From NCBI GenBank assembly GCA_964633605.1, contig CAZWGF010000002.1:1-40016 (forward strand): a DNA stretch of 40,016 nt, in the 5' to 3' direction. Below, piece after piece: positions 5,101 through 40,016 of this stretch. Source of the DNA: Candidatus Woesearchaeota archaeon. GTDB taxonomy: Archaea; Nanobdellota; Nanobdellia; Pacearchaeales; GW2011-AR1. Both the position numbers and the translations under genes were made by a program. The notes under the pieces are model-generated. The model worked only from the letters and a program-made list of their open reading frames with translations. It had not been told where the DNA came from and searched no databases. How positions within the stretch are numbered: position 1 is the stretch's first letter; every line of letters begins with the position of its first letter.

Positions 5101-7915
5101 TCTGGAATGCACGCTGGGCAAATGCGATGATATCACGCGATGGGACGGGCTTGACGGGGCCGCCGGCGTCCATGGCCACCTTGATCCGGCCACGGTCGAT
5201 TTCGTTCTGTGATACCACTGTCGAGGGTGAGGACTCATCGCCCAGGTAGGCCGGGCTTTTCTCTCGGGGCCATCTGGCATCGGCCTCTATATCGCTCTGG
5301 AAGTCTGCTTGGGGCTCAGTACCAGCCCATGCGTAAACAGGCGTCTTGTCCTGCATGAAGTTTTTGTCAACGATCTTGGCGTTTACCATGCGGCCCAGAA
5401 CCTCGGCGTTCTCCTTGCTTGCTTCCTTGCTGCCTGTCCACTGCTCGGCCGTCATCCACGTTCGGGCCGGGAGTTTGTTGCCCAGGATGAATAATGGGCT
5501 TCTTGACGCAACGTCGTCTGTCCTCAACAGGTCTGCATTGACCAGCATCTGTGCCAACTGTTGGGGAAAGGGCTTACTGCCTGCCGATACACGCACGGGC
5601 GTTTTCTGTGCAACGTTGGGTGTCAGTACGGTACTGACTGCATTCACGGGCATGGTTACGGTTTGCGTCTGGCCCTTGGGGCTCCGGGTCAATATGGGCC
5701 GTAGTTCATCGCCTTCTGGCAGGAACATCTTGATCTTTGTTTCGCCCCTCGATGCGTGCAGCTCCAGGGCATCTTTGAGGAAATTCGAGTTGACGGCAAC
5801 TACCTGCTCTGCCCCGTCCTTCACGCCGATCTGCGCTGCGATCCCCGCCTCATGGCCTGCACTGGCAAAGCCTATGGTTCCGTCAGGGTTCTTCATGATG
5901 GCGATTGTGGGTATTTCGCCCTTACCGCTCGGCGCGGCTACTGCTGCCTGTCTGACCTGCTGCCAGGTCTTGCGAGTGTTCAACTCGATTCCATCGGCTG
6001 CCTTGACCTCGGGAATGATTGCCTTGTAGTCTGGGAAGTTGCCCCGCGTTTCGTCCTTTGCGAGTGTCCGTTGCTTCAGCTCACCCTTCTTGAACGCCGC
6101 CGGTTCGTCGTAGAGTCCGTCCGGGCCCCAATCGCCTTTGAGGATGTACGCACGCTGTCCGTCCGTGACGACAAGGTCCTTACCCTTGACCAGGGCCCCG
6201 TCAACTGCATACCTGGAGGCCTTTTTAGCCTTGCCCTTACCGAGCCTACTGAACAGGTTCTTGGCTGGTGCAGGATATGACGGGGTAGCGATTGCGGGGG
6301 GCTTTCCGGGCTTGGTCTTGGCCAATGGCTTTAGCTTGGCCATTTCGGATGCGACCTTAGCCATCGCCTTCTCATTGCCTGGCAGTGCAAACAGTTGAGC
6401 GTCTGGTATGCCGGTGGGGAACTCAACTGCCACAGTATGGTAGGCTTCGTCCACCTTGTCCGCATCTTTGAATGGCTTTGTTGTTAGTTTCGTACTTGGG
6501 TCATTCGCCCACGCCTGGTAATCCGTTATGATTTCGTTGGCTTGTTCTCGGGAAAGAGCTGTAACTGTTTCCCCCGGTTGTTGCGTATCAATTGGCTGAG
6601 GCGTAATCGGGGCCGGGGCCGTCGGACTGACGGGCGGCGGGGTGATTTGCGTGGCATCTGGTGTCCCCTTTAGTTGTAGTTGCTGCTCTTGCGGTTGCAA
6701 TTGCTGGATGATTGCCGCACTCTTCTGGTTAGCTGGAACTCCGGCAGCCTTGGCCCTGGCCTGGATCTGCTTTCGGGAGAGCTTTGTCAGGTCAGTCGTC
6801 GGCTGTTTCGGTGGTTGCTGCGCCAGCGGGATCGGCGCGGGAGGCGTACCCGGTTGCCTGGTGGCCAGGGGGTGCTTTCCGAAGTCCTTTAATGGCGGTT
6901 GCTTCACCTTTTTGGGAGTAACCCGCTTTGGATCCAAACCTTGATATTTCACCCGGACGGCATCCCATCTGGTACGATCCCCTGTCTTTTTCCAGTGTTT
7001 TATTGCTGCATCGATCTCGGCCCGGGCACTCTGCCGCGTTACCTGCGCGTGGGTCTTGGCCGTTTTAGCGGCGCGCAGGCCCCGAACGAACCGGCCCAGT
7101 TTCTCCACTCCGAGCTCGCCGGCGCCGAACATGACACCAATCCCGAACTCGAAGCTGATACCCCCGTAATCCACGGGCTCGTTGTTTATGACCTTGTCCG
7201 AGAATTCCTCACCAGCCTTGCGTGTGGCAAAGGTCAGGCCACTGCCCGCCATCACCTTGAGTGCCCGCTTGCCCGCGATCCGCTTGATCACTGGGGCCGC
7301 TATCTTGCCCGCTGTACTGATCCCGGTCATGAAATTAGCGATATCTCCGGCTGCAATATCCTGCTTTTTGGGCTTGAACCCCGTCATATGGTCAACAATG
7401 CCCGCCAAACTGTCGATCTTGCCGCCACTGACCCGCTTGGCTGCAGCATCGGCCACACCCAGAGTAAGCCCGGAGACGGCCTCTGTGCCCGTATGAAGGA
7501 TACCCTTGCCGATGGTCCTAAATGGAGTCTCTTCCGCCCCCAGCGGTCGCGTAGGAGCCGGAACAGGACGTGGGCGGCCTGGTGCACCGAAGAGTGCCGT
7601 ACCAATATCTGCCGGCGGTGGAGGGGCCTGCTGGATCGTCTCCTGGCCTCGGGGGGCTAGGGGGTCAACAGTGACCGCTGATCCGGTGTCAGTAACGGGG
7701 ATGTCCTGGCCAGCTACGCGGATGGTAGGTGTGCCAGGTCTGGGCATGAGGGCTGCCGTGGCGTTCTTGAGTACATCGGGGTCAATACCGGCGCCTGCTA
7801 ACTCTACCGGGGCATCCAGGGAATACCTGCTGGCCTGGGGAGTTGAAGGGCCGGCGTCAATGGAATATTTACTGGCAGGCTGCTCGGCGTCCAGTGAGTA
7901 CTTGCTGATAGCCAT
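2144..7915 (-). CDS. giant multidomain (polyvalent-type) internal virion / ejection protein
   Basis: Uninterrupted 1923-aa ORF abutting the upstream gene (stop 7918, start 7915). Domains seen: aa 4-35 three SKYSLDA-like motifs; aa 375-406 HeH/SAP-like LSRKQIQARAKAAGVPANQKSAAIIQQL; aa 568-759 DnaN-like motifs (VVTDGQRAY, GNFPDYKAIIP, TVTMPV); aa 976-981 HEVGHH with downstream EGWAEY; hydrophobic AAAMAIGTLTIPALGLWYAY near the C-terminus. Its position after the fibre and internal-protein genes fits an ejected protein. Function is inferred. Confidence 0.85.
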   Translation of the reverse strand: MAISKYSLDAEQPASKYSIDAGPSTPQASRYSLDAPVELAGAGIDPDVLKNATAALMPRPGTPTIRVAGQDIPVTDTGSAVTVDPLAPRGQETIQQAPPPPADIGTALFGAPGRPRPVPAPTRPLGAEETPFRTIGKGILHTGTEAVSGLTLGVADAAAKRVSGGKIDSLAGIVDHMTGFKPKKQDIAAGDIANFMTGISTAGKIAAPVIKRIAGKRALKVMAGSGLTFATRKAGEEFSDKVINNEPVDYGGISFEFGIGVMFGAGELGVEKLGRFVRGLRAAKTAKTHAQVTRQSARAEIDAAIKHWKKTGDRTRWDAVRVKYQGLDPKRVTPKKVKQPPLKDFGKHPLATRQPGTPPAPIPLAQQPPKQPTTDLTKLSRKQIQARAKAAGVPANQKSAAIIQQLQPQEQQLQLKGTPDATQITPPPVSPTAPAPITPQPIDTQQPGETVTALSREQANEIITDYQAWANDPSTKLTTKPFKDADKVDEAYHTVAVEFPTGIPDAQLFALPGNEKAMAKVASEMAKLKPLAKTKPGKPPAIATPSYPAPAKNLFSRLGKGKAKKASRYAVDGALVKGKDLVVTDGQRAYILKGDWGPDGLYDEPAAFKKGELKQRTLAKDETRGNFPDYKAIIPEVKAADGIELNTRKTWQQVRQAAVAAPSGKGEIPTIAIMKNPDGTIGFASAGHEAGIAAQIGVKDGAEQVVAVNSNFLKDALELHASRGETKIKMFLPEGDELRPILTRSPKGQTQTVTMPVNAVSTVLTPNVAQKTPVRVSAGSKPFPQQLAQMLVNADLLRTDDVASRSPLFILGNKLPARTWMTAEQWTGSKEASKENAEVLGRMVNAKIVDKNFMQDKTPVYAWAGTEPQADFQSDIEADARWPREKSPAYLGDESSPSTVVSQNEIDRGRIKVAMDAGGPVKPVPSRDIIAFAQRAFQIPIRGKATFRMAHALGWYHPFGKSIRLQDVRSITTATHEVGHHIDHIDGDRISKHPASTEIGKELFDMGVALYGNRKPVGGYKSEGWAEYMREYLTGGDTASIAPNMDKWFKDVFLPKHPDTNRNLNKLRQMISTWRHQGARGRISSMINRKPFRGTLGERMERASLWTEVNFIDELAPLKRRLITAGLFDLPPERNPYTLAVAYADKAPAVARKFILHSTTNLSGYTTGPGLTEIFKPIDHITEWVQYAVATRALDLIRRGKNPGISKADAEFVIKDTSDETAKIYDDVLDEVTSWNGRVLDYMGEAGAISEDTIKTIRTLNPVYIPFLRIFDWGEVKIASGSGKGFRTHSKPINVLSGSGREFMEPIEAMLTQAERLISIAHKTMVAQAIAKVVNQPGGHQFGEKVPTPRTATNFSVEQIKGDVLKIIEDKLGIDLGDLPDVDPEALKERWDEMLTVYSNAAQYWGKDNIIPIINAEGKREFIQLDKDVFQTVMALDQYSLPPWLNATVGGATRLRRLGATGLNPGFGLIRNFVRDASTFGVTAEHAKGGAISAARGVVSDIRGTEAARHFKALGGEMSGQLMHDRVAAKNLRAEMLLDRTKMGKYVIKTVAHPIQAARELFSVTESGVRIAEFEAALKVGEEKFGKGTLNASLFALNAAQDVTTNFTRHGKIAKVLNQVFPFYNANIQGPQKIFRTFADPKTRGRAAAMAIGTLTIPALGLWYAYRDEDWWKNMADFERVNYMHFRAPGTDTVVRLPVPFQVGHVFASLPVAAVDAAYRKDPTSLPDDLVEMLDQSNPFGSRNIITGMALAGPVVDVMRNKDWAGRPIVPPGTMHLLDEDQYGRYTTDTMKAIGRALNMSPSRTEYLIDSYSGGLFRRFARGWGMISGSQQGSRNYSDIPVFGTLFMREPNSPRDQLTKFYKARDTLNRKFASKKITPKERAMRTRFNKVATQLQTDYEALEKTTNDPQRKRIYQRIRRRLP

Positions 7916-31255: not shown

Positions 31256-31657
31256 CTACAATCCTTTCTTCACTGAGTACGTTTTCGTTTTTCTGCTATA
31301 CCTTAGCACTTTCATTTTGAGTAACTGGTCTACGCATTTATTCAAAGTCCCGTGGCACTTGAAATGGTCTGTGTTCCCGCTAAACAAGTCGAGGTTTTTG
31401 ATATCGTTATCCGTTTTCACCATGCTAATGTGATGCACTTGCTCAGTGGGTTTCAGGTATCTTTTGAGCTTCTTTTCCATTACAAGCCGATGTTGCGCAA
31501 CAAAACCTTTCCTTGCGTATGGGTGTTCTGTTCGCTTCTCTAGCACTGGCCCCTCACACCCACCTCTTTTGTGTTTGGTCGTTCCATCTGGCTTCAATGT
31601 TTTCTTTTCACAACCCCATGTCAAGCATTCTGGCACAATCCGCCAGTAGCATCGCAT
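31256..31657 (-). CDS. HNH endonuclease
   Basis: 133 aa. AQHRLVMEKKL...EQVHHISMVKTDNDIKNLDLF...HFKCH carries His-Asn-His spacing. The start is uncertain (50-nt overlap with the upstream gene, no SD). Confidence 0.75.
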   Translation of the reverse strand: MRCYWRIVPECLTWGCEKKTLKPDGTTKHKRGGCEGPVLEKRTEHPYARKGFVAQHRLVMEKKLKRYLKPTEQVHHISMVKTDNDIKNLDLFSGNTDHFKCHGTLNKCVDQLLKMKVLRYSRKTKTYSVKKGL

Positions 31658-32054
31658 CGGCCACGGCGTGCGTTATCTTCTGTTCTGGCCATCGCCTTTG
31701 TGCCGCTATCTTGCTTACATTTTTATCGCCTCCTGTCCGGCAGTTCATTTTAGTCATCCACTTGGTTGGAGTTATTAGCTGGTAGGGTATTTTTAAACCA
31801 ACTAGACACATCTCTAACTGGCCATAGCTTTGGCCAAATTTGAATGTTGACGAGACTCCCTGTTTCGGCATTGCTGACACTCGCTCAAGAAATGCTGTCT
31901 TAGGATTAAAGTCACGCTTACAGATTACCATTTCATGAGCCAGATCGGCCAAGGTTAGTCCCTTGAACTTGAACACCTTGGCGATGCGGCCCTTTTCGTT
32001 AACCACGGCACAACCCCCGGACGCGCCGGGATCAACTCCGAGATAGAACGACAT
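31608..32054 (-). CDS. RuvC-like Holliday junction resolvase
   Basis: 148 aa. N-terminal YLGVDPGASGG catalytic-Asp motif and C-terminal HAVADAMLLADCAR. TAATG coupling to the upstream gene. Confidence 0.8.
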   Translation of the reverse strand: MSFYLGVDPGASGGCAVVNEKGRIAKVFKFKGLTLADLAHEMVICKRDFNPKTAFLERVSAMPKQGVSSTFKFGQSYGQLEMCLVGLKIPYQLITPTKWMTKMNCRTGGDKNVSKIAAQRRWPEQKITHAVADAMLLADCARMLDMGL

Positions 32055-32981: not shown

Positions 32982-33221
32982 CTATCCGAACAAGGTTTTC
33001 TTATTCGCTTTCTTTCGTTCGCCGTGTTGAATAACGCGGGAAATATGTTCTCCTAGCTGGCCCCAGTTATCGGGGTGATGCTCGGCAAGGTAGTTGGTAC
33101 ACGCCGCACGGAGGGTTTCAATGGCGATGACACGGTCCTCAATGCAGTCGGCCCGCACAGAGTCGCCCATACACCGATGGACCATGTCCTCAAAGTGCTT
33201 GTAGTGCCTATCCTCCAGCAT
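32982..33221 (-). CDS. hypothetical protein
   Basis: 79 aa; 14-nt overlap with the upstream gene. Confidence 0.65.
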   Translation of the reverse strand: MLEDRHYKHFEDMVHRCMGDSVRADCIEDRVIAIETLRAACTNYLAEHHPDNWGQLGEHISRVIQHGERKKANKKTLFG

Positions 33222-33840
33222 CAGTCACCCTCCGGTAACCATAAACCCAGACCCAAGGGTCGGTGTCCCAGCCATAGCCACGGGCCGCGTTGATTGAGTC
33301 CCAAAGCTCGCGGAAACTATCAAAGCACGCCCCCATACACGCGCCTAGGCAGGGTAAGCCCTCGGCCCCTATAGCGCGATGCGTTATGTCCTGTAGCTTC
33401 TCAGGGTGAACGTCCAAAACCCTAACAGTGGGCCTTGACGCCCACCTTGGCATGAAGATCGATGGCCGCTTATGGTAGCGTAGGTCTGTACGGTGCCTGG
33501 GCTTTTCCTGGGGAACGGTTACGGCCTTCTTGCCAACCGCCTTGAACGTCCAGGCCTGCCGTCCGGTCTTTGTTTCCCCGTTCTTGACCCACTTACCCCA
33601 CTGCCAAAACGTCTCACGCACCCACAATATGTCACCTTCGCTGTATCTGGGGACACGGTCAACGCAATTCGGCACTTCGCTGGCGTCCATCTCTGCCATC
33701 CAGTTCCACACCCCGTCAACGCAGGTAGGGTCATACCCTACACCCTCGGGCTGAGGCACGATCACGCGACGCGTCTCCGTCTTCAAGCCATACAAGCTCG
33801 CTTCCACTAGATGACTCTTCATCAACATCGGTTTATCCAT
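33208..33840 (-). CDS. ASCH-like phage protein
   Basis: 210 aa. LYGLKTETRRV, GDILWVRETF, PSIFMPRWASRPTVRVLDVHPEKLQDIT, and WDSINAARGYGWDTDPWVWVY match the widespread phage family with KT.TRR / LWVRE / MPRWASR / NPWVW motifs. Confidence 0.7.
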   Translation of the reverse strand: MDKPMLMKSHLVEASLYGLKTETRRVIVPQPEGVGYDPTCVDGVWNWMAEMDASEVPNCVDRVPRYSEGDILWVRETFWQWGKWVKNGETKTGRQAWTFKAVGKKAVTVPQEKPRHRTDLRYHKRPSIFMPRWASRPTVRVLDVHPEKLQDITHRAIGAEGLPCLGACMGACFDSFRELWDSINAARGYGWDTDPWVWVYGYRRVTDAGG

Positions 33841-34039
33841 CTTTGTTCCCTTTCACGACAGGACGGCGGAAATGTTCAGCCAGTGGGCATTTACCAAAGT
33901 GGCATTCGCCGTCGGCTTGGATGGGCATTAACTTGCCACCCTTGGTTTTAATGAACCATATCTTGCAGGAACAGCCCTTGCACGACGCTGGTTCAGTAAT
34001 CCAGTTCAATAGACGTTCGATTCTTTCTTCTGGTGTCAT
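33833..34039 (-). CDS. small Cys/His zinc-binding protein
   Basis: ORF track gives 33833..34078. ATG 34039 has a GGAGG RBS and an ATGA overlap with the upstream stop. CKGCSC...ECHFGKCP. Confidence 0.65.
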   Translation of the reverse strand: MTPEERIERLLNWITEPASCKGCSCKIWFIKTKGGKLMPIQADGECHFGKCPLAEHFRRPVVKGNKDG

Positions 34040-34347
34040 TTCGATGCCTCCTGGCAAAGCACTGCCACTATGATCCATTGCTTGGGATCCGATAATCGCA
34101 TGCTGCAGTCTGATTCGTTACCAGTCACAGCCGACAGCCACCAATCCCAATCACAGGACTTTTCCCCATTAATGTCAGCGGCCACTAGGGCGTCACGCAT
34201 CTCGAACGCCACGTCGGCCAGGGAGCCGGGGATATCTACGTACTGGCCATACATGAGAAAGTGTGTACAGCCACCCATCAGCCCCCAGTACGCTGCGATC
34301 ACCCGCTCATGCTTCAAGAGATCCTTGCACTCAAGTAGCTCTTTCAT
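34036..34347 (-). CDS. hypothetical protein
   Basis: ORF track gives 34036..34404. ATG 34347 is preceded by TTATTGAAAGGGACATT (shared leader motif). Confidence 0.65.
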   Translation of the reverse strand: MKELLECKDLLKHERVIAAYWGLMGGCTHFLMYGQYVDIPGSLADVAFEMRDALVAADINGEKSCDWDWWLSAVTGNESDCSMRLSDPKQWIIVAVLCQEASK

Positions 34348-34366
34348 AATGTCCCTTTCAATAAAC

Positions 34367-35041
34367 TCACTTCGGCTGTATCTCCAATAGACCATACTTG
34401 TCACTCTCTGCCCGAATACGTTTCTCGGCCAACTTTATGTACTCTGGATTTAGTTCGCATCCCACATAATCTCGGTTGTTCTGGTAGGCCACCATGGCGG
34501 TTACTGCTGTTCCCATGAACGGTTCAAGGGTTATCCCCGGCCTAAAGCCTGCGTTGCATTTGCAGCGGGTCCAGCCGGTGGTTTCTGCTGGTGCAGCGTC
34601 CAGGTGTGGCTGTGTTCCATTGGGAAGTCTTGTTTGGCCACTGTTGGGCCTACTTGGGACAATGCCCTTCTCTACGGCATGTTCGTTCATCTGCCGCCAA
34701 GACTCGTCTTTGACTTTCTCGTATGTCGATTGCCCTGTTTTCTCGATTATCCTGCTCCTGGGTTCCCCGCACTCCACGCATACCTCTTTGGGGCACCCGG
34801 CCAGGATGCAGGGCAGGATCAGGGCAGGAGGAAAAGTGGCGAAGTGGCTTGACTCCTTGGTGTTTATGTTGTATAATGCACATTTACAATCTTCTTCTGG
34901 AAAGGATTTGTATGAAGACTTGTCAACAATGCGAAAAATCATTTGACCCAAGAAACGAACGTCCATCACATCCGGCCAAGTATTGCTCTCGAACATGCTC
35001 GCACATGGCCCAGACAACCCGTGTGAAATTAACCTGTTCAC
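34367..35041 (-). CDS. degenerate N6/N4 DNA methyltransferase-like protein lacking the catalytic (D/N/S)PPY half
   Basis: GTG 35041 overlaps the helicase TGA (GTGA). HFATFPPALILPCILAG, a Cys4 insert (CVECG...CKC), EPFMGTAVTAMVA and GCELNPEYIKLAEKRI match the C-terminal part of beta-class MTases. No DPPY-type motif occurs anywhere in the ORF. Confidence 0.6.
   Translation of the reverse strand: MNRLISHGLSGPCASMFESNTWPDVMDVRFLGQMIFRIVDKSSYKSFPEEDCKCALYNINTKESSHFATFPPALILPCILAGCPKEVCVECGEPRSRIIEKTGQSTYEKVKDESWRQMNEHAVEKGIVPSRPNSGQTRLPNGTQPHLDAAPAETTGWTRCKCNAGFRPGITLEPFMGTAVTAMVAYQNNRDYVGCELNPEYIKLAEKRIRAESDKYGLLEIQPK
34849..34877 (+). promoter_or_regulatory. near-consensus sigma70-type promoter pointing rightward
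   Basis: TTGACT (34849-54), a 17-nt spacer, then TATAAT (34872-77). Followed by GGAAAGGA and ATG 34912. Confidence 0.5.
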
Positions 35042-35322
35042 AATATCGCCCCTACCTCTTTCCAACGAAGCTCACTCTTGATCCAGTTGAACCCGATCCC
35101 CAGACGCGCACCAGGGCCGTTAGAAACCTTCAAAACATGCCACACAGCATTAAGCTCGGCAGTATCAGACATCAAACAACCGCTAAACTGCACCCTAAAC
35201 TCTTTAACCTTCTTCAACTGCTCAATCCAGATCACGCACTGCGAAAACTTGCCATACGCACGGCCACCAGCAATATCATCAATGTCAACGGCACCCCGAG
35301 CCACCTTACCCCGAGGATGTGA
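34912..35322 (+). CDS. candidate Zn-ribbon ORF antisense to the MTase-like and helicase genes
   Basis: Reads MKTCQQCEKSFDPRNERPSHPAKYCSRTCSHMAQ... (CxxC-x17-CxxxC with a YCS..C motif). Has its own promoter and RBS. The first in-frame stop is only at 35322, so the last 285 nt are antisense to the genuine helicase C-terminus. The real extent is unclear. Confidence 0.3.
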   Translation: MKTCQQCEKSFDPRNERPSHPAKYCSRTCSHMAQTTRVKLTCSQYRPYLFPTKLTLDPVEPDPQTRTRAVRNLQNMPHSIKLGSIRHQTTAKLHPKLFNLLQLLNPDHALRKLAIRTATSNIINVNGTPSHLTPRM

Positions 35323-36942
35323 CACGAACAGAATAGAGCAGTTGTACTTCGAGGCAATACGCTTGACACCCATCACCAAGTCACGGTCCAATTCAAACAC
35401 CTTGCCCCCCTTTGTGTCCAAAGCCGTTACAGGATCGACACAGATCACACGGCGACCAGAACGAGCTTGAGCCCCTATCCACGCCAAAAGATCACTATGC
35501 GTCATGTCAGACTGCTCGTACCCGATCACCATGCGACGCCCGATACCCTCCAAAATTGAAGCATCCTCAACAGCAAACGAACGGGCCAAAGCATTGTTCT
35601 CAGCGTCCTCCAACCACCGAGGATTGAACAAATTAGAGTCCCGACGGATCATGGCTGACAATCGAGACAAATGCCAGTACCGCTCGTGCTCCAGCCATAA
35701 ACACACATAATCTACACCAAGTTCCTCCCAGTGCATCATACACTGCAACAACGCAAAAGACTTGCCCTCACCAGGCTTGGCACCAATGATCGTCAACGTA
35801 CCAGGACACAACGGCAAGCACGTTTCATTCAAAGAACTAAACGGAACGTCAATAGCACGCATCGAACCAGAAATAATACGGTCCAAATAGCCCAATCGAA
35901 CCGCTAAATCGCCCAACCGTATGGCCTCAGACTTCACCTTAGCCAACAACATCGGCCAAGACCGGGGGTCACTATCTCCCAAATAATCGCCAACGTCCCA
36001 CTTCGGACCCGATGCACCCGCAACAACAGGATCTACACGAAACAAAGTGCAACCCAATCCCTCCAAATGACGACCCACAGCGTCCATGTGCGATGAACCA
36101 ACGTCATCATTGTCCGGCCATAAATATACCACCTTCCCAGACAACAAAGACCAGTCCGTCTTCCGCCCTTGCCAACTGTATTCGCCCGATTCAGATAAAA
36201 CACCAGCGCCACCAGCAGATGTAGTACCACATAAACCGGCAGCTATCAGTAAATTCGCACACTTCTCGCCCTCAACTACCCATACCTCGTCACTACCTCG
36301 AACGACTGACTCATTGTATACAGGAAATGGACCCGAAGGTGCACCCAAACACCAACCTCCAATAACTTCGCCGTTGGTGCCCTTAAGCTCACCAAACTTG
36401 CACTGTAAATAACGCTTGCCAATCTTGCCTGAAGAATCGTCACAACGAATTATCCCCAAATATGGAGCATTCCCCCTATTATAGATGTAGAAACTTCGGA
36501 AATTTTTAATTCTACGCTTTAGCTGGGCCAAGGGTATGTATGATGGGGTAGTCGGCCCGGTGGCTGGACGCACCCCCCCGCCCCCGCCCCCCCCCTCTCT
36601 GGTCCGCGCGATCGTGTCGCCGCTGTCCGGGCCGGCAGGTGTAGCTGCGACCGAGCCTGGCTGGCCGGCACTACGGTACAGCTCCTGCACGGTGCAGCCC
36701 CTGGCCCGAGCAAGTAGGTCCACCACATCACCCGACACGCCGCACTTGGCTCGGAAGCAGTAGGACCGCCAATGCCCAGTGCCCGACGCCTGGATCCACG
36801 CCGAGCGGTCATGGTCCGGGCAGTACGGGCAGTCAAACCCGTCACCAGCCCAGCGCAGGTCCTTATCCGTGGCATCATTGAGGACACGCACCAAAGCCGA
36901 GCGGTCCGTGGTTGATGGTAATGTATCGGATGTCACGGCCAT
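35038..36942 (-). CDS. bifunctional primase-helicase (Zn finger + Toprim + DnaB-like)
   Basis: ORF track gives 35038..37005. ATG 36942 has a GAGGGTG RBS. Motifs: CPYCPDH...FRAKCG zinc finger, Gly7 linker, Toprim VWVVEGEKCANLL and LWPDNDDVG, Walker A GAKPGEGKSF, Walker B RVICVDPV, DnaB-like LKVSNGPGARLGIGFNW. Confidence 0.9.
   Translation of the reverse strand: MAVTSDTLPSTTDRSALVRVLNDATDKDLRWAGDGFDCPYCPDHDRSAWIQASGTGHWRSYCFRAKCGVSGDVVDLLARARGCTVQELYRSAGQPGSVAATPAGPDSGDTIARTREGGGGGGGVRPATGPTTPSYIPLAQLKRRIKNFRSFYIYNRGNAPYLGIIRCDDSSGKIGKRYLQCKFGELKGTNGEVIGGWCLGAPSGPFPVYNESVVRGSDEVWVVEGEKCANLLIAAGLCGTTSAGGAGVLSESGEYSWQGRKTDWSLLSGKVVYLWPDNDDVGSSHMDAVGRHLEGLGCTLFRVDPVVAGASGPKWDVGDYLGDSDPRSWPMLLAKVKSEAIRLGDLAVRLGYLDRIISGSMRAIDVPFSSLNETCLPLCPGTLTIIGAKPGEGKSFALLQCMMHWEELGVDYVCLWLEHERYWHLSRLSAMIRRDSNLFNPRWLEDAENNALARSFAVEDASILEGIGRRMVIGYEQSDMTHSDLLAWIGAQARSGRRVICVDPVTALDTKGGKVFELDRDLVMGVKRIASKYNCSILFVSHPRGKVARGAVDIDDIAGGRAYGKFSQCVIWIEQLKKVKEFRVQFSGCLMSDTAELNAVWHVLKVSNGPGARLGIGFNWIKSELRWKEVGAIL
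36553..36582. repeat. 30-nt exact inverted-repeat copy B (partner 19655-19684)
   Basis: + strand reads CGGCCCGGTGGCTGGACGCACCCCCCCGCC. Lies inside the primase ORF (coding strand encodes GGVRPATGP). Confidence 0.9.
36573..36595 (-). repeat. G9-C-G5-C-G7 tract on the coding strand (Gly7 linker)
   Basis: + strand is C7 G C5 G C9, counted from the sequence and consistent with the seven-Pro run in shadow ORF 36536..36763. Confidence 0.9.
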
Positions 36943-37880
36943 ACACCCTCGACAGCAGCCTCGGCCAGCAGTGCGAGCACATCGACGGCCGGGTAGGCCT
37001 TGCATCGAGCTGCCCAGTCCACGTCTTCGTCGTGGTAGTCAGGATCCACGTCCTTGCCGGGCAGCAGGCCCCACAGTTTCAGAGCCGCCAGCATCCGCTT
37101 GCACTCTCTGGGCGTGAAGTACTGGAGGTGTGTACGCAGGAAGCGGGCGATGATTGGATGAACGTCCTTCACGGTGATCGGGTCATCTGGCGGGAACCGG
37201 CGGTAGGCTATCAGGTCGACCATTATGTCAGACGCAGTGTACTCTGACGACTCGCTTGGTCGTTCACATCCAGGTAGGTGGCTCGTATCCCCCCAATCGT
37301 CTGAATCATGGGTTTTCTGGTCTCTGTCTCCTTCTTTATTCTCTTTCTCCCTCTCTAATCTCGATTCACCCGGAGAATCCTTGTTTTCCTGGTTCCCCGA
37401 GTTCTTCCCCTTTTGTGTATTCTTCCTATCGTATGATAAGTTAGGTTGCTTTGGGTGTAGAGGCCACTTTGGGGTCGACACTTTGCCGTATGCCTTGCAC
37501 ACGAAGTGTTGGCAGTACCTGAGCATGACCAAGGGGTTATTATTGATATCAACGGCGTGTTCTGTGGGCACATACCGCTCGATCATGCCAGCCTCTTCGA
37601 GTTCATCGTTCAGTCTTTGCACGTCCCCAGGCTCTACTTTAGTGTGTGCGGCCGGGTTGATTCTGATGTAGAGCTGTAGGTATATCTCCGTGCAATCAGC
37701 CGTGTAGTTGCCCCACTTATCCAGTAGTGTCAGGAGCCGGAAGTAGTGGGCTTGGGCCAGTGGTGATACTCCCGCCAGTGCGTGCGACAGCAGGATCGGC
37801 CGGTGCAGTGGCACGAAGTCCGCCGTGTATTGGGGCATGTATCTCTGGTCCTGGTTGGGTTGTGGCTCTATCGTTGGCAT
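36933..37880 (-). CDS. replisome-organizer / DnaD-like winged-helix protein (tentative)
   Basis: ORF track gives 36933..38054. ATG 37880 has AGGAG 8 nt upstream. FVPLHRPILLSHALAGVSPLAQAHYFRLLTLLDKWGNY resembles the N-terminal domains of phage replication organizers. Central K/E/N-rich linker. Confidence 0.6.
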   Translation of the reverse strand: MPTIEPQPNQDQRYMPQYTADFVPLHRPILLSHALAGVSPLAQAHYFRLLTLLDKWGNYTADCTEIYLQLYIRINPAAHTKVEPGDVQRLNDELEEAGMIERYVPTEHAVDINNNPLVMLRYCQHFVCKAYGKVSTPKWPLHPKQPNLSYDRKNTQKGKNSGNQENKDSPGESRLEREKENKEGDRDQKTHDSDDWGDTSHLPGCERPSESSEYTASDIMVDLIAYRRFPPDDPITVKDVHPIIARFLRTHLQYFTPRECKRMLAALKLWGLLPGKDVDPDYHDEDVDWAARCKAYPAVDVLALLAEAAVEGVWP

Positions 37881-38301
37881 TGGTGGGCTCCTGTTTGGTG
37901 GGCTGTAATCGTTTGGGTATTGGTGGCAGGCCGGTGGGTAATTGTGTGATCTTGCGTCGTGATTGGTGCTTGAAGGGTGCTTGGTCCCAGGTCTGCGTGG
38001 CCGATGAGTAATAGATCGCTGGTTGGCCGGGCCTATCGACCATGAACCCGGCAAACCCTACTTGGTTGGTCTCCGTGAATAGCTGGTATGCGCTGGCGTT
38101 GGGGTGTGCGATGTGGAACGGTTTGGAATTGTATCCTGGCTTGTGGTACGCCATTGGTCGCCCCTTATATGATATGCCCGGGCCGGCGTGCTTAACAGCG
38201 CAACCTGAGAGGCAGGGGCCGGCCCAGGCGTTGTGAGTTGCATTGTAATAGGCTGCGCTATAATCATGACCGACACAATTACCGCATCTGTGTTGTGACA
38301 A
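37717..38301 (-). CDS. Cys-rich hypothetical protein, first gene of the leftward train
   Basis: TTG 38301 has no SD. The alternative ATG 38154 has an AAGGGG RBS. The N-terminal CGNC-x21-CLSGC looks like a zinc ribbon. The last ~55 codons overlap the next gene and look like out-of-frame read-on. Confidence 0.5.
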   Translation of the reverse strand: MSQHRCGNCVGHDYSAAYYNATHNAWAGPCLSGCAVKHAGPGISYKGRPMAYHKPGYNSKPFHIAHPNASAYQLFTETNQVGFAGFMVDRPGQPAIYYSSATQTWDQAPFKHQSRRKITQLPTGLPPIPKRLQPTKQEPTNANDRATTQPGPEIHAPIHGGLRATAPADPAVARTGGSITTGPSPLLPAPDTTG

Positions 38302-38466
38302 TCAAGAAGAATCTCAAGTTTATTTCAGGGGGATAAGTCCTTGGGGTGCCTGGTGTTTACAATCATGGATGTCGTGTTTAGGAATATAAACCTGGACATT
38401 TCGGGGCCATGTGTCGTAGTATTTAGAGTATGGGGGCAACCGTTAATCTATTGAAAGGGATTTGTT
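38302..38466. promoter_or_regulatory. divergent intergenic control region
   Basis: Strand switch between the leftward train and the rightward genes. The best + strand promoter-like match is TGGACA (38393-98), an 18-nt spacer, then TAGTAT (38417-22). No convincing leftward hexamers found. Confidence 0.4.
38447..38460 (+). promoter_or_regulatory. conserved leader TCTATTGAAAGGGA (copy 1)
   Basis: Identical 14-mer at 39144-39157. Both copies end 6 nt before an ATG. Confidence 0.5.
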
Positions 38467-38700
38467 ATGGCCTTGTATTGTGACTACTGCGAACATAGTG
38501 GCGCCGTCCAGTGCGATGCGTGCGGGATGACGTATTGCCGGAAGTGCGATCCGCAAGCCGAGAAGTTCACTGGGTGCAACTGTCCAAATGAAGAATGTCC
38601 ACTCCATCCGATCACTGATCCGGATGTGGTCGAGGTGTTGACCGAGTGGGCCACGGACCAGGTCGTAGATATGCTGCCAGTGAAGGGGGTGAGGCTATGA
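38467..38700 (+). CDS. B-box-like multi-Cys zinc-finger protein
   Basis: 77 aa; CDYC...CDAC...YCRKC...CNC...C. Confidence 0.7.
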   Translation: MALYCDYCEHSGAVQCDACGMTYCRKCDPQAEKFTGCNCPNEECPLHPITDPDVVEVLTEWATDQVVDMLPVKGVRL

Positions 38701-39625: not shown

Positions 39626-40016
39626 ACATCAACGGCGAAGAAATTACATTGGATCAGGTGGATAAGATGAAGGTTAATAAAAGACAATGGCGGATTACGC
39701 CATTGGGAAACTGGGTCACGCTCGGAAACGGGGTCAAGCTCGGAAACGGGGTCACGCTCGGAAACGAGGTCACGCTCGGAGACAGGGTCACGCTCGGAAA
39801 CGAGGTCAAGCTCGGAAACGGGGTCAAGCTCGGAAACGGGGTCACGCTCGGAGACTGGGTCAAGCTCGGAGACGGGGTCACGCTCGGAGACGGGGTCACG
39901 CTCGGAGACGGGGTCAAGCTCGGAGACAGGGTCACGCTCGGAAACGAGGTCAAGCTCGGAGACGGGGTCACGCTCGGAGACTGGGTCAAGCTCGGAGACG
40001 GGGTCACGCTCGGAGA
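39622..40016 (+). CDS. hexapeptide-repeat (left-handed beta-helix-like) protein, N-terminal fragment running off the right edge
   Basis: TTG 39622 overlaps the upstream TGA (GAGG 5 nt upstream). Alternative ATG 39667 has AGGTGG upstream. Open to the window end. 17 consecutive (N/D)-x-V-(T/K)-L-G units. Confidence 0.7.
   Translation, partial: MNINGEEITLDQVDKMKVNKRQWRITPLGNWVTLGNGVKLGNGVTLGNEVTLGDRVTLGNEVKLGNGVKLGNGVTLGDWVKLGDGVTLGDGVTLGDGVKLGDRVTLGNEVKLGDGVTLGDWVKLGDGVTLG
39709..40016 (+). repeat. about 17 tandem 18-nt units GG(G/A/T)...GTCA(C/A)GCTCGGA(A/G)AC
   Basis: Read directly. The units differ at only about 4 nucleotide positions. Confidence 0.95.

What the first reader, a model, noticed from the sequence alone, without database searches (positions are those of the whole stretch)
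34367..35322. Near-consensus rightward promoter and Zn-ribbon ORF lie antisense at the helicase/methyltransferase junction, and the methyltransferase lacks its catalytic half
Seen in sequence:
- TTGACT-17 nt-TATAAT (34849-34877), then GGAAAGGA, then ATG 34912. The ORF opens MKTCQQCEKSFDPRNERPSHPAKYCSRTCSHMAQ, a CxxC...YCSxxC zinc ribbon of a kind common in small phage proteins.
- Its leader AAAGGATTTGTATG resembles AAAGGGATTTGTTATG in front of the rightward Zn-finger gene at 38467.
- All of this is antisense to the first ~45 codons of the leftward ORF 34367..35041. That ORF is itself start/stop-coupled (GTGA) to the helicase.
- The + ORF has no stop until 35322, so it runs 285 nt antisense through a clearly genuine DnaB-like C-terminus.
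- The leftward ORF carries only the C-terminal motifs of beta-class N6/N4 methyltransferases. It has no (D/N/S)PP(Y/F) motif, only about 60 aa where such enzymes normally have 100-150 aa, and a weakened motif I (PFMGTA instead of PFxGSG).

Possible readings:
- a recombination scar in which a rightward cassette replaced the MTase N-half;
- a promoter making a cis-antisense RNA against the primase-helicase 3' end (a convergent-transcription switch);
- an MTase remnant retained as a SAM/DNA-binding pseudoenzyme.
Basis: partly seen in the sequence, partly recalled or inferred. Interest (0 to 1): 0.7.

Follow-up and report, generated by a model that had tools for sequence, protein, structure and literature searches.

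The report
Fossil homing-endonuclease cassette in truncated methylase
The rightward promoter and zinc-ribbon ORF are the dead 5' stump of a selfish HNH homing-endonuclease gene, and in related phages the intact gene sits backwards inside a DNA-methylase gene without breaking the methylase reading frame.

Summary
They have one origin.

- **What the + strand segment is.** Window 34849-35043 (+) holds the promoter, Shine-Dalgarno and first 44 codons of an HNH homing-endonuclease gene (HEG). The 44 codons are 70-75 % identical to 165-174-aa HNH proteins.
- **The intact element.** In 23 distinct metagenomic phage loci the intact HEG lies on the strand opposite a beta-class N6/N4 DNA methyltransferase. 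It always sits directly upstream of the SHFATFPP codons. The methylase frame has no stop across the whole about 570-nt cassette in all 23.
- **The promoter.** The -35/17 nt/-10 promoter and SD keep their positions in most of 31 relatives.
- **What happened in the window.** HEG codons 45 to the end and about 240 N-terminal methylase residues (including SPPY motif IV) are gone. The junction is at 35044-35049. The primase-helicase stop codon and the remnant's GTG start are therefore HEG-derived DNA.
- **Status.** Both genes look dead. The + ORF tail to 35322 is a chance antisense ORF.
- **Closest described thing.** The mycobacteriophage "ShiLan domain" (2025) hides its HNH on the same strand. This family uses the opposite strand and has its own promoter.
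- **Not tested.** Whether the orphan promoter still fires.

The parts
34849..34877 (+). The HEG's own sigma-70-type promoter: -35 TTGACT (34849-34854), 17-nt spacer, -10 TATAAT (34872-34877). The predicted start is about 34884. The -35 hexamer and its neighbours also encode 'TKESS' of the leftward ORF.
   Evidence: In most of 31 homologous cassettes the best match in the 75 nt upstream has the same layout: TTGACT/TTGTCT/TTGTTT, 17 nt, TAgAAT/TATAAT.
34899..34906 (+). Shine-Dalgarno-like GGAAAGGA, 5 nt before the ATG.
   Evidence: Relatives carry AGGAGG or GAAAGGA at the same distance, for example L029 GAAAGGATTATCAGATG.
34912..35043 (+). Codons 1-44 of an HNH homing-endonuclease gene. These encode the N-terminal CxxC...YCSxxC zinc ribbon. 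The catalytic HNH part is missing.
   Evidence: 70-75 % identical to residues 1-44 of P0121-P0124, E 8e-12 to 5e-10. 83-84 % nucleotide identity to L021 and L034. GC is 42 % against 54 % in the flanks.
35044..35049 (.). Breakpoint zone where homology to intact HEGs ends. This is the right end of the deletion or recombination scar.
   Evidence: DNA alignments with L014, L034 and L021.
35044..35322 (+). Non-homologous tail of the + ORF. It is a chance open frame, exactly complementary to the helicase codons, and is not a gene.
   Evidence: No homologue beyond residue 44. The helicase has only 18 TTA/CTA/TCA codons in 635, the last at codon 540.
34367..34846 (-). C-terminal remnant (residues 66-224) of a beta-class N6/N4 DNA methyltransferase. 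It holds the HFATFPP motif, a Cys-rich insert (CxxC...C.C), motif I (FMGTA) and the C-terminal helices. There is no catalytic motif IV.
34847..35041 (-). First 65 codons of the 224-aa leftward ORF, with the GTG start at 35041-35039. This is antisense read-through of HEG DNA, in the same antisense phase that intact invaded methylases keep stop-free. It has no methylase homology.
   Evidence: For example, window NRLISHGLS...FESNTWPD.MD.R.LGQMIFRIVDKSSY matches the L034 read-through. pLDDT is below 50 for residues 1-72.
35038..36942 (-). Primase-helicase gene. Its last 1-3 codons and its TGA stop (35040-35038) lie in HEG-derived DNA, so its native 3' end was lost at the scar.
   Evidence: PHROG 239 matches profile positions 191-558 of 801, and only 56 residues follow the match, so a C-terminal truncation is possible. 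Distant relatives leave this undecided.

Best explanation
**What it is.** The locus is a decayed copy of a mobile element.

**The intact element (seen in relatives).**
- It is a 165-174-aa HNH homing endonuclease with an N-terminal zinc ribbon.
- It has its own sigma-70-type promoter and SD.
- It is inserted on the opposite strand inside a phage beta-class N6/N4 DNA methyltransferase gene, between the '..VW..TKP(Y/F)' segment and the 'SHFATFPP' motif.
- The cassette is about 570 nt and in frame. It contains no stop codon in the methylase frame, so the methylase ORF reads through it as a loop insertion of about 190 aa.

**What happened in the window phage (inferred).** A deletion or illegitimate recombination removed HEG codons 45 to the end together with the whole N-terminal part of the methylase (about 240 aa). 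It probably also removed the native 3' end of the primase-helicase gene.

**What is left.**
- The HEG promoter, leader and 44 codons remain on the + strand.
- On the - strand there is a 224-aa chimeric ORF: 65 codons of antisense HEG followed by 159 codons of methylase C-half.
- That ORF starts at a GTG that happens to overlap a stop codon terminating the helicase. Both codons are supplied by HEG DNA.

**Shown versus inferred.**
- Shown: the homologies, the shared insertion site, the conserved promoter, the stop-free host frame in relatives, and the breakpoint.
- Inferred: the order of events, and that the endonuclease and the methylase are both inactive here.
- Also inferred: the promoter may still fire and produce an RNA antisense to the helicase 3' end, as a by-product and not an evolved switch.
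For: **HEG identity**
- The + ORF's first 44 aa match four HNH proteins at 70-75 % identity. The rest of the ORF matches nothing.
- P0123 and the L035 HNH ORF pass the Pfam HNH threshold.

**Same site, opposite strand**
- In about 30 loci the HNH gene is antisense to an N6_N4 methylase, between P0009 residues 241/242 and 243.
- L013 (empty site) and L029 (occupied site) have about 90 % identical flanks and differ by an insert of about 570 nt.

**Stop-free host frame**
- The methylase frame has 0 stops in 23 of 25 complete HEGs, at GC 41-63 %. The other two antisense frames have 0-11 and 6-16 stops.
- Synonymous-codon shuffles expect 1.7-5.7 stops. The fraction of shuffles with none is 0-0.126 per locus.
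- Ten loci give one uninterrupted open frame from SPPY to the natural stop. An example is the 613-aa ORF of L035, which is also the closest relative of the window remnant at 51 %.

**Promoter and coding strand**
- The promoter and SD keep their positions in most relatives.
- HNH-frame third positions vary most.

**Truncation and breakpoint**
- Searches show the truncation. Searches place the breakpoint.

**Other support**
- The HEG stump is a 42 % GC island in 54 % GC flanks.
- The junction is identical in 7 independent contigs.
- Other decayed copies exist: L052 and L053 lack HEG codons 23-128.
- In the P0009 model the insertion site falls in a low-confidence loop just before the helix that follows HFATFPP.
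Against: - No close relative of this phage with an intact locus was found. 'Deletion in situ' therefore cannot be told apart from 'a fragment acquired by illegitimate recombination'. The original extent of the helicase C-terminus is also unknown.
- The methylase C-half has no frameshift or stop in 159 codons. The HEG stump keeps a near-perfect promoter and an intact zinc ribbon. This fits a recent event but also retention by selection.
- Inactivity of the remnant is inferred from the missing motifs and a poor AlphaFold model built on a shallow alignment. It was not measured.
- All relatives are metagenomic contigs with unknown hosts.
Confidence: 0.85

Rival explanations
1. Exapted antisense promoter. 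The retained near-consensus promoter is kept because it makes a cis-antisense RNA, or collides with leftward transcription, and so tunes expression of the primase-helicase and downstream replication genes (a convergent-transcription switch).
For: - It is the strongest sigma-70 match in the window at 11/12.
- It is at least as good a consensus match as in any intact relative.
- It points into the helicase 3' end.
- No + strand terminator-like site was found between 34877 and 35322.
Against: - HEG ancestry fully explains the promoter.
- Only one essentially clonal phage carries this junction, so there is no evidence of conservation after the truncation.
- An 11/12 match is within the range of the intact cassettes (L026 and L029 also score 11/12).
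Confidence: 0.08
2. Functional methylase fragment. The 224-aa product works as an AdoMet- or DNA-binding pseudoenzyme, or as the C-terminal subunit of a split methyltransferase whose catalytic N-half is encoded outside the window.
For: - The C-half is intact over 159 codons.
- Its start is coupled to the helicase stop, with an AGGGG 7 nt upstream.
- C-half-only ORFs recur in other phage contigs. P0023 in L013 follows a separate 265-aa N6_N4 ORF and an 85-aa ORF.
Against: - No N-half is found in 40 kb. The longest contig carrying the gene is only 45 kb.
- Motif IV and profile columns 1-180 are absent.
- The AlphaFold model is poor: mean pLDDT 52.6, with the motif I region at 45-54.
- The first 65 residues are antisense HEG sequence.
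Confidence: 0.08
3. Truncated endonuclease as a small DNA-binding protein. The 44-aa zinc ribbon, fused to 92 unrelated residues, is expressed. It binds the HEG target site, for example blocking cleavage by related HEGs from co-infecting phages.
For: - The promoter, SD, ATG and all zinc-ligand cysteines are intact.
- Zinc-ribbon domains of phage HNH enzymes are DNA-binding modules (abstract of PMC3592412, listed).
Against: - The remainder of the ORF is antisense helicase sequence with no homologues.
- Differences from the nearest relatives are not concentrated at third positions: 7/8/7 against L021 and 4/7/10 against L034. This hints at relaxed constraint, though the counts are small.
Confidence: 0.03
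4. Chance or artefact. The promoter-like hexamers and the ORF are coincidental, or the junction is an assembly chimera.
For: A promoter match of 11/12 or better appears in about 25 % of simulated 40-kb windows.
Against: - The homology has E-values down to 8e-12.
- The promoter keeps its position in most relatives.
- Seven independent assemblies give the identical junction.
Confidence: 0.01

Closest known systems
ShiLan domain, the 'hidden HNH endonuclease' insertion in mycobacteriophage DNA methylases (Arsenault, Gosselin & Gogarten 2025, PMC11855218; earlier PMC9957025)
   Same: - Both are homing HNH genes lodged inside a phage DNA methylase ORF at a conserved motif.
- The insertion is in frame and has no stop in the methylase frame.
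- There is no intron or intein signature.
- Distribution is disjunct (empty and occupied alleles).
- The insert is thought to be tolerated as a loop.
   Different: - In ShiLan the HNH ORF is on the same strand, in another frame. It has no recognisable promoter or RBS, and its expression is an open question in that paper.
- Here the HNH is on the opposite strand, with its own conserved -35/-10 and SD.
- There is no detectable sequence similarity: tblastn of P0123 against 50,697 phage records lists no Mycobacterium phage among the named organisms.
- The window copy is a truncated fossil, not an intact element.
Free-standing homing endonucleases that split phage genes into pieces (for example mobE in Aeromonas phage Aeh1 nrdA; from my own knowledge, Friedrich et al. 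2007 PNAS)
   Same: - An intron-less, intein-less HEG with its own expression signals sits inside a conserved phage gene.
- L014 carries a second HNH that does break the methylase frame.
   Different: Those insertions split the host gene into separate ORFs. This family keeps one continuous host ORF through the antisense HEG.
Antisense-oriented HEGs in nuclear group I introns of myxomycetes (PMC9223047 and PMC8395846, listed)
   Same: The HEG is encoded on the strand opposite its host gene.
   Different: Those HEGs sit in self-splicing introns of rRNA genes. Here no ribozyme is detected, and the insert has only about 60-70 nt outside the HNH ORF. The host is a protein-coding ORF that is read through.
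Homing-endonuclease life cycle of invasion, fixation, degeneration and loss (from my own knowledge, Goddard & Burt 1999 PNAS)
   Same: The window copy and L052/L053 look like HEGs at the degeneration stage.
   Different: Here the degeneration also took out the host gene's catalytic half, so precise loss and re-invasion are no longer possible.

Membership tests
Beta-class N6/N4 DNA methyltransferase (Pfam PF01555 N6_N4_Mtase) | Catalytic motif IV, (S/D/N)PP(Y/F/W) | tested here: not met
   Absent from the 224-aa ORF. tblastn with seven full-length relatives finds no N-half in the window.
Beta-class N6/N4 DNA methyltransferase (Pfam PF01555 N6_N4_Mtase) | N-terminal catalytic half (profile columns 1-180) | tested here: not met
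   Only profile columns 183-221 are matched. The control P0009 matches columns 1-180 plus the C-terminal stretch.
Beta-class N6/N4 DNA methyltransferase (Pfam PF01555 N6_N4_Mtase) | C-terminal half: HFATFPP motif, motif I (FxGxG-like) and the following helices | tested here: met
   Residues 66-224 align with 370-406-aa relatives at 36-50 % identity. The Pfam score is 41.1 bits against a cut-off of 26.7.
HNH homing endonuclease family P0121-P0124 (Pfam PF01844 HNH plus an N-terminal zinc ribbon) | N-terminal zinc ribbon MKTCQQC..F.P.NERPSHPA.YC..C | tested here: met
   70-75 % identity over 44 aa, E 8e-12 to 5e-10.
HNH homing endonuclease family P0121-P0124 (Pfam PF01844 HNH plus an N-terminal zinc ribbon) | HNH motif region (CxxCG..LHxHH..DNL..LCxxCH) | tested here: not met
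   Homology stops after codon 44. The window ORF has no Pfam hit. Intact relatives pass the HNH threshold.
HNH homing endonuclease family P0121-P0124 (Pfam PF01844 HNH plus an N-terminal zinc ribbon) | Own -35/17 nt/-10 promoter and SD upstream, with the cassette antisense to and abutting the SHFATFPP codons of a methylase | tested here: met
ShiLan-type hidden-HNH insertion in a phage methylase | In-frame insertion in a methylase ORF with no stop in the methylase frame | tested here: met
   23 of 25 relatives have 0 stops, and the shuffle null is rejected. In the window the surviving 65 codons are open in the same phase.
ShiLan-type hidden-HNH insertion in a phage methylase | HNH ORF in an alternative frame of the same strand as the methylase | tested here: not met
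   The HNH is on the opposite strand in every locus and in the window.
ShiLan-type hidden-HNH insertion in a phage methylase | Sequence relatedness to the ShiLan or Pacc40 HNH | tested here: inconclusive
   tblastn of P0123 against 50,697 phage records lists no Mycobacterium phage among the named organisms. The best hits are 25-32 % identical free-standing HNHs. ShiLan itself was not aligned directly.
Group I or group II intron-borne HEG | A self-splicing ribozyme core flanking the HEG | tested here: not met
   No Rfam family matched in the window or in L014, L016, L029 and L035 at gathering thresholds, nor in L035 1400-2300 at E<=1. Only about 60-70 nt of the insert lies outside the HNH ORF.
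Intein | An in-frame insert encoding splicing blocks (N-terminal C/S, C-terminal HN followed by C/S/T), with the endonuclease in the same frame | tested here: not met
   By inspection, the read-through peptides start with S/T/K-G/D/E-W.. and end ..(K/T)SS-H. The HNH is on the other strand.
Cis-antisense RNA or convergent-promoter regulator | A transcript initiated from the promoter that alters expression of the overlapped gene | not testable with these tools
   Needs 5' RACE or dRNA-seq and promoter mutants.

The most novel reading that the evidence does not exclude
The window holds a fossil of a way, not found described in the papers and phage records searched here, for a homing endonuclease to live inside a protein-coding gene without an intron or intein. 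The HEG is encoded on the antisense strand with its own promoter and SD. Its sequence is under selection to contain no stop codon in the host frame. The host methylase would then be translated straight through a loop of about 190 aa and stay functional, giving a fully overlapping antisense gene pair. This would also suggest one way 'hidden' HNHs can be expressed, which the ShiLan paper left open. In the window itself, the orphaned promoter would still fire into the primase-helicase gene.
Probability: 0.5. Interest if true: 0.75.

Novelty: new variant of a known kind. Interest (0 to 1): 0.6.

Why it matters
**For this window**
- One origin explains four oddities: the promoter, the zinc-ribbon ORF, the GTGA coupling and the half methylase. 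All are one scar.
- The 224-aa 'methyltransferase' and the 136-aa + ORF should not be annotated as functional genes.

**Beyond the window**
- The trail leads to a coherent family of at least 23 metagenomic phage loci, with GC from 41 to 63 %.
- In these loci an HNH homing endonuclease and its host methylase are encoded on opposite strands of the same roughly 570 nt, and the host frame is kept stop-free.
- This extends the single 2025 report of intron-less, intein-less 'hidden HNH' insertions to the opposite strand, with a visible promoter and SD.
- The family is a natural system for studying three things: selection on fully overlapping antisense genes, how far methylases tolerate large loop insertions, and HEG decay.
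- Gene callers will annotate such loci either as one 560-770-aa methylase or as fragments, and either way the annotation hides the element.

Tried and rejected
**Searches for close relatives of this phage**
- blastn of 33000-38000 against GenBank phages gave only an 89-bp hit elsewhere.
- The helicase found no relative in viral contigs. It found only distant relatives in the protein database, aligning over only 13-88 % of the query at 24-41 % identity. Helicase C-terminal truncation could therefore not be settled.
- Synteny through the downstream genes failed. Relatives of the 210-aa ORF are 32-41 % identical and have no methylase or helicase nearby. The 119-aa ORF has no relatives.

**Ideas that did not hold**
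- The 34849 promoter region is not a duplicate of the rightward early region near 38393. There is no extended homology, and the shared CCTKGGTGTTTA word is within chance.
- The leader similarity to 38467 is a shared SD word.
- No methylase N-half lies elsewhere in the window.
- No intron was found by Rfam.

**Other negative results**
- The HEG family was not found in one representative genome per species.
- No deposited phage record covers the methylase together with the insert.
- The AlphaFold model of the remnant has too low confidence to support or exclude an autonomous fold.
- The near-identical contigs L001-L007 carry no informative variation.
Full report
**1. Observation**

The promoter is as described. 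TTGACT (34849-34854), a 17-nt spacer and TATAAT (34872-34877) are followed by GGAAAGGA (34899-34906) and an ATG at 34912.
- It is the best sigma-70 match in 28-40 kb.
- It is the only match of 11/12 or better in the whole window.
- A match that good appears in about 25 % of first-order-Markov simulated windows, so it needed outside support.

The + frame is open to 35322.

- It starts at a GTG (35041-35039) that overlaps the helicase TGA (35040-35038).
- Public gene callers call it as a 224-aa protein, P0001.
- Pfam N6_N4_Mtase matches only profile columns 183-221 of 221.
- Against 370-406-aa relatives, homology begins at H66 of HFATFPP (nt 34846).
- The first 65 residues match nothing, and motif IV (SPPYWGLRDY in relatives) is absent.
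- tblastn with seven full-length relatives finds no N-half elsewhere in the window.

The junction is not an assembly artefact. Seven contigs from different ENA and Logan samples are 99.86-100 % identical across it.

**2. What the + strand element is**

A search of the 136-aa + ORF returned four proteins of 165-170 aa. Two of them carry a precomputed Pfam HNH domain. They match only the first 44 residues of the query, at 70-75 % identity, with E-values from 8e-12 to 5e-10. P0123 and the L035 orthologue pass the Pfam HNH cut-off.

The 'zinc-ribbon ORF' is therefore the N-terminal stump of an HNH endonuclease gene. DNA alignments with the closest relatives (L034 84 %, L021 83 % over the 132 nt) show that homology also covers the leader and promoter. 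It ends at 35044-35049.

Three consequences follow.
- The helicase stop codon and its last 1-3 codons are HEG-derived DNA.
- The GTG of the leftward ORF is HEG-derived DNA too.
- The 'GTGA coupling' is a by-product of the scar.

The stump is a 42 % GC island in 54 % GC flanks.

The remaining 93 codons of the + ORF lie in the exact-complement frame of the helicase. That gene has only 18 TTA/CTA/TCA codons in 635, none after codon 540. This part of the ORF is chance.

**3. Where the intact gene lives**

Scans of viral and metagenome contigs with the HNH alignment gave about 30 loci. None came from one-genome-per-species bacterial and archaeal genomes.

In essentially every locus the HNH gene lies on the strand opposite a beta-class methylase. 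It sits at one site, between P0009 residues 241/242 ('..VW..TKP(Y/F)') and 243 ('(A/S)HFATFPP').

L013 and L029 form an empty-site and occupied-site pair. Their flanks are about 90 % identical, and they differ by an insert of about 570 nt at exactly this point.

The insert is almost entirely the HNH ORF plus about 60-70 nt of promoter and leader. No Rfam intron family matches. The read-through peptide has no intein termini.

**4. The host frame is kept open**

| Measure | Result |
|---|---|
| Stops in the antisense phase matching the methylase frame | 0 in 23 of 25 complete HEGs (GC 41-63 %) |
| Stops in the other two antisense phases | 0-11 and 6-16 |
| Stops expected from synonymous-codon shuffles that keep the HNH protein and codon usage | 1.7-5.7 |
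| Fraction of shuffles with no stop, per locus | 0-0.126 |

- The loci are related, so these probabilities cannot simply be multiplied. The sequences differ at 56 % of third positions, so stop avoidance must be maintained.
- In ten loci one open frame runs from SPPY through the antisense HEG to the natural methylase stop. An example is the 613-aa ORF of L035.
- Variation across the family is concentrated at HNH third positions (0.30/0.28/0.565). The HNH frame is therefore the constrained one, and the methylase frame across the insert is constrained mainly to stay open.
- In an AlphaFold model of the uninvaded P0009 (pTM 0.72), the site lies in a low-confidence loop. The loop is between the strand at residues 226-228 and the helix at 250-260 that follows HFATFPP. 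This fits a tolerated loop insertion but does not prove one.

**5. The promoter is part of the cassette**

Aligned on the ATG, the best promoter match in most of the 31 relatives has the same layout:
- TTGACT, TTGTCT or TTGTTT as the -35 hexamer;
- a 17-nt spacer;
- TAgAAT, TATAAT or TAAAAT as the -10 hexamer;
- then AGGAGG or GAAAGGA 5-9 nt before the ATG.

The -35 region is also the complement of the codons for 'T(K/E)(E/K)(S/T)S' that immediately precede HFATFPP.

It is not met.

**6. What happened in the window**

Compared with an L035-like ancestor, the window lacks three things:
- HEG codons 45 to the end;
- methylase residues 1 to about 242;
- whatever followed the original helicase stop.

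PHROG 239 aligns helicase residues 215-578 to profile positions 191-558 of 801, and only 56 residues follow. Distant relatives carry longer C-terminal regions. The helicase may have been clipped, but this is unresolved.

I could not find a sister phage with an intact locus. 'Deletion in place' therefore cannot be separated from 'acquisition of a fragment by illegitimate recombination'.

Other decayed copies exist. L052 and L053 lost HEG codons 23-128 in frame.

**7. Function now**

- The endonuclease lacks its catalytic domain.
- The methylase lacks motif IV and the whole N-terminal half.
- The remnant models poorly alone: mean pLDDT is 52.6, residues 1-72 are below 50, and the motif I region is 45-54. 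The alignment was shallow.
- 'Weakened motif I' is not evidence of decay, because intact relatives share G-A-F or G-S-A variants.

I conclude, by inference, that both genes are dead and the locus is a recent scar. The promoter may still fire and give an RNA antisense to the helicase 3' end. Nothing here shows that this has been selected.

**8. Comparison with what is known**

| Known system | Same | Different |
|---|---|---|
| ShiLan domain of mycobacteriophage methylases (PMC11855218) | Stop-free, in-frame insertion in a phage methylase that hides a homing HNH; no intron or intein signature | The ShiLan HNH is on the same strand in another frame, and its expression is unexplained. Here it is on the opposite strand with its own promoter and SD |
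| Myxomycete nuclear group I introns (PMC9223047, PMC8395846) | Antisense-oriented HEG | Those HEGs sit in self-splicing introns of rRNA genes |
| Gene-splitting free-standing HEGs (own knowledge) | Intron-less, intein-less HEG inside a conserved phage gene | Those break the host ORF into separate pieces |

- There is no detectable sequence similarity to any deposited phage beyond 25-32 % identical free-standing HNHs.
- No deposited phage record covers the methylase together with the insert.
- Five full-text searches found no description of an antisense, read-through HEG in a protein-coding gene. The library is incomplete, so this is absence of evidence only.

**9. Verdict**

It is a scar, but of a homing-endonuclease cassette and its host gene.
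- The window's copy is an ordinary dead remnant.
- The element it descends from is a new variant of a recently described and still rare kind.
- Interest is 0.6.

Noticed in passing
L022 ~5160-5170, L029 ~2158-2165, L039 ~1996-2004, L034 ~5357-5362 (all - strand): In four distinct HEG-invaded methylases the ORF is interrupted inside catalytic motif IV. The sequence reads ...SPPY(W), then a stop, then continues in the +1 frame as (K/R/E)(C/W)GLRDYG. This is caused by 7 extra nt after TAC TGG (TAAATGT, TAGATGG or TGAATGT), or by 4 extra nt in L034. The site is the same, the sequences differ, and a 0-frame stop lies exactly at the shift. It could be a conserved +1 recoding site or a recurrent scar in the most conserved motif.
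   Followed up: partly
L014 1670-2380 (+), inside the methylase between GLEPTP and MVEVFREV: A second, unrelated 236-aa HNH gene is inserted antisense in the same methylase gene. Unlike the family studied here, it puts stops in the methylase frame, so that methylase is in pieces.
   Followed up: partly
L013 4942-6579 (+): A 265-aa N6_N4 ORF, an 85-aa ORF and the 192-aa C-half ORF P0023 lie in tandem. P0023 has an empty HEG site. L029 has the same P0023-like N-terminus but carries the HEG. This may be a naturally split methylase.
   Followed up: partly
L052 600-782 and L053 542-724: These HEG copies have an internal in-frame deletion of codons 23-128. They are still open in the methylase frame. 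This is a second kind of decayed copy.
   Followed up: partly
L043 741-1322: This HNH has a longer C-terminus (193 aa). No methylase homology is detected on its 3' side, and there are two stops in the methylase phase. It may be another locus that lost the methylase N-half, but the contig is too short to tell.
   Followed up: no
window 31256-31657 (-): An apparently intact free-standing HNH endonuclease gene (133 aa; several PHROG HNH families, E down to 3e-13) lies in the same leftward operon, next to a RuvC-like resolvase gene at 31608-32054.
   Followed up: no
window 39713-40016: An 18-bp tandem repeat (consensus GGGTCACGCTCGGAGACG, at least 16.9 copies, 89 % matches) runs off the end of the window. 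On the - strand it lies in an ORF reading PS(L/V)T(P/Q/S)(S/F) repeats.
   Followed up: no
L008-L010, bases 1-110: Three independent JGI contigs carrying the 212-aa C-half-only methylase P0006 all begin about 107 nt upstream of that gene. This suggests a genome end or an assembly-breaking repeat at that point.
   Followed up: no
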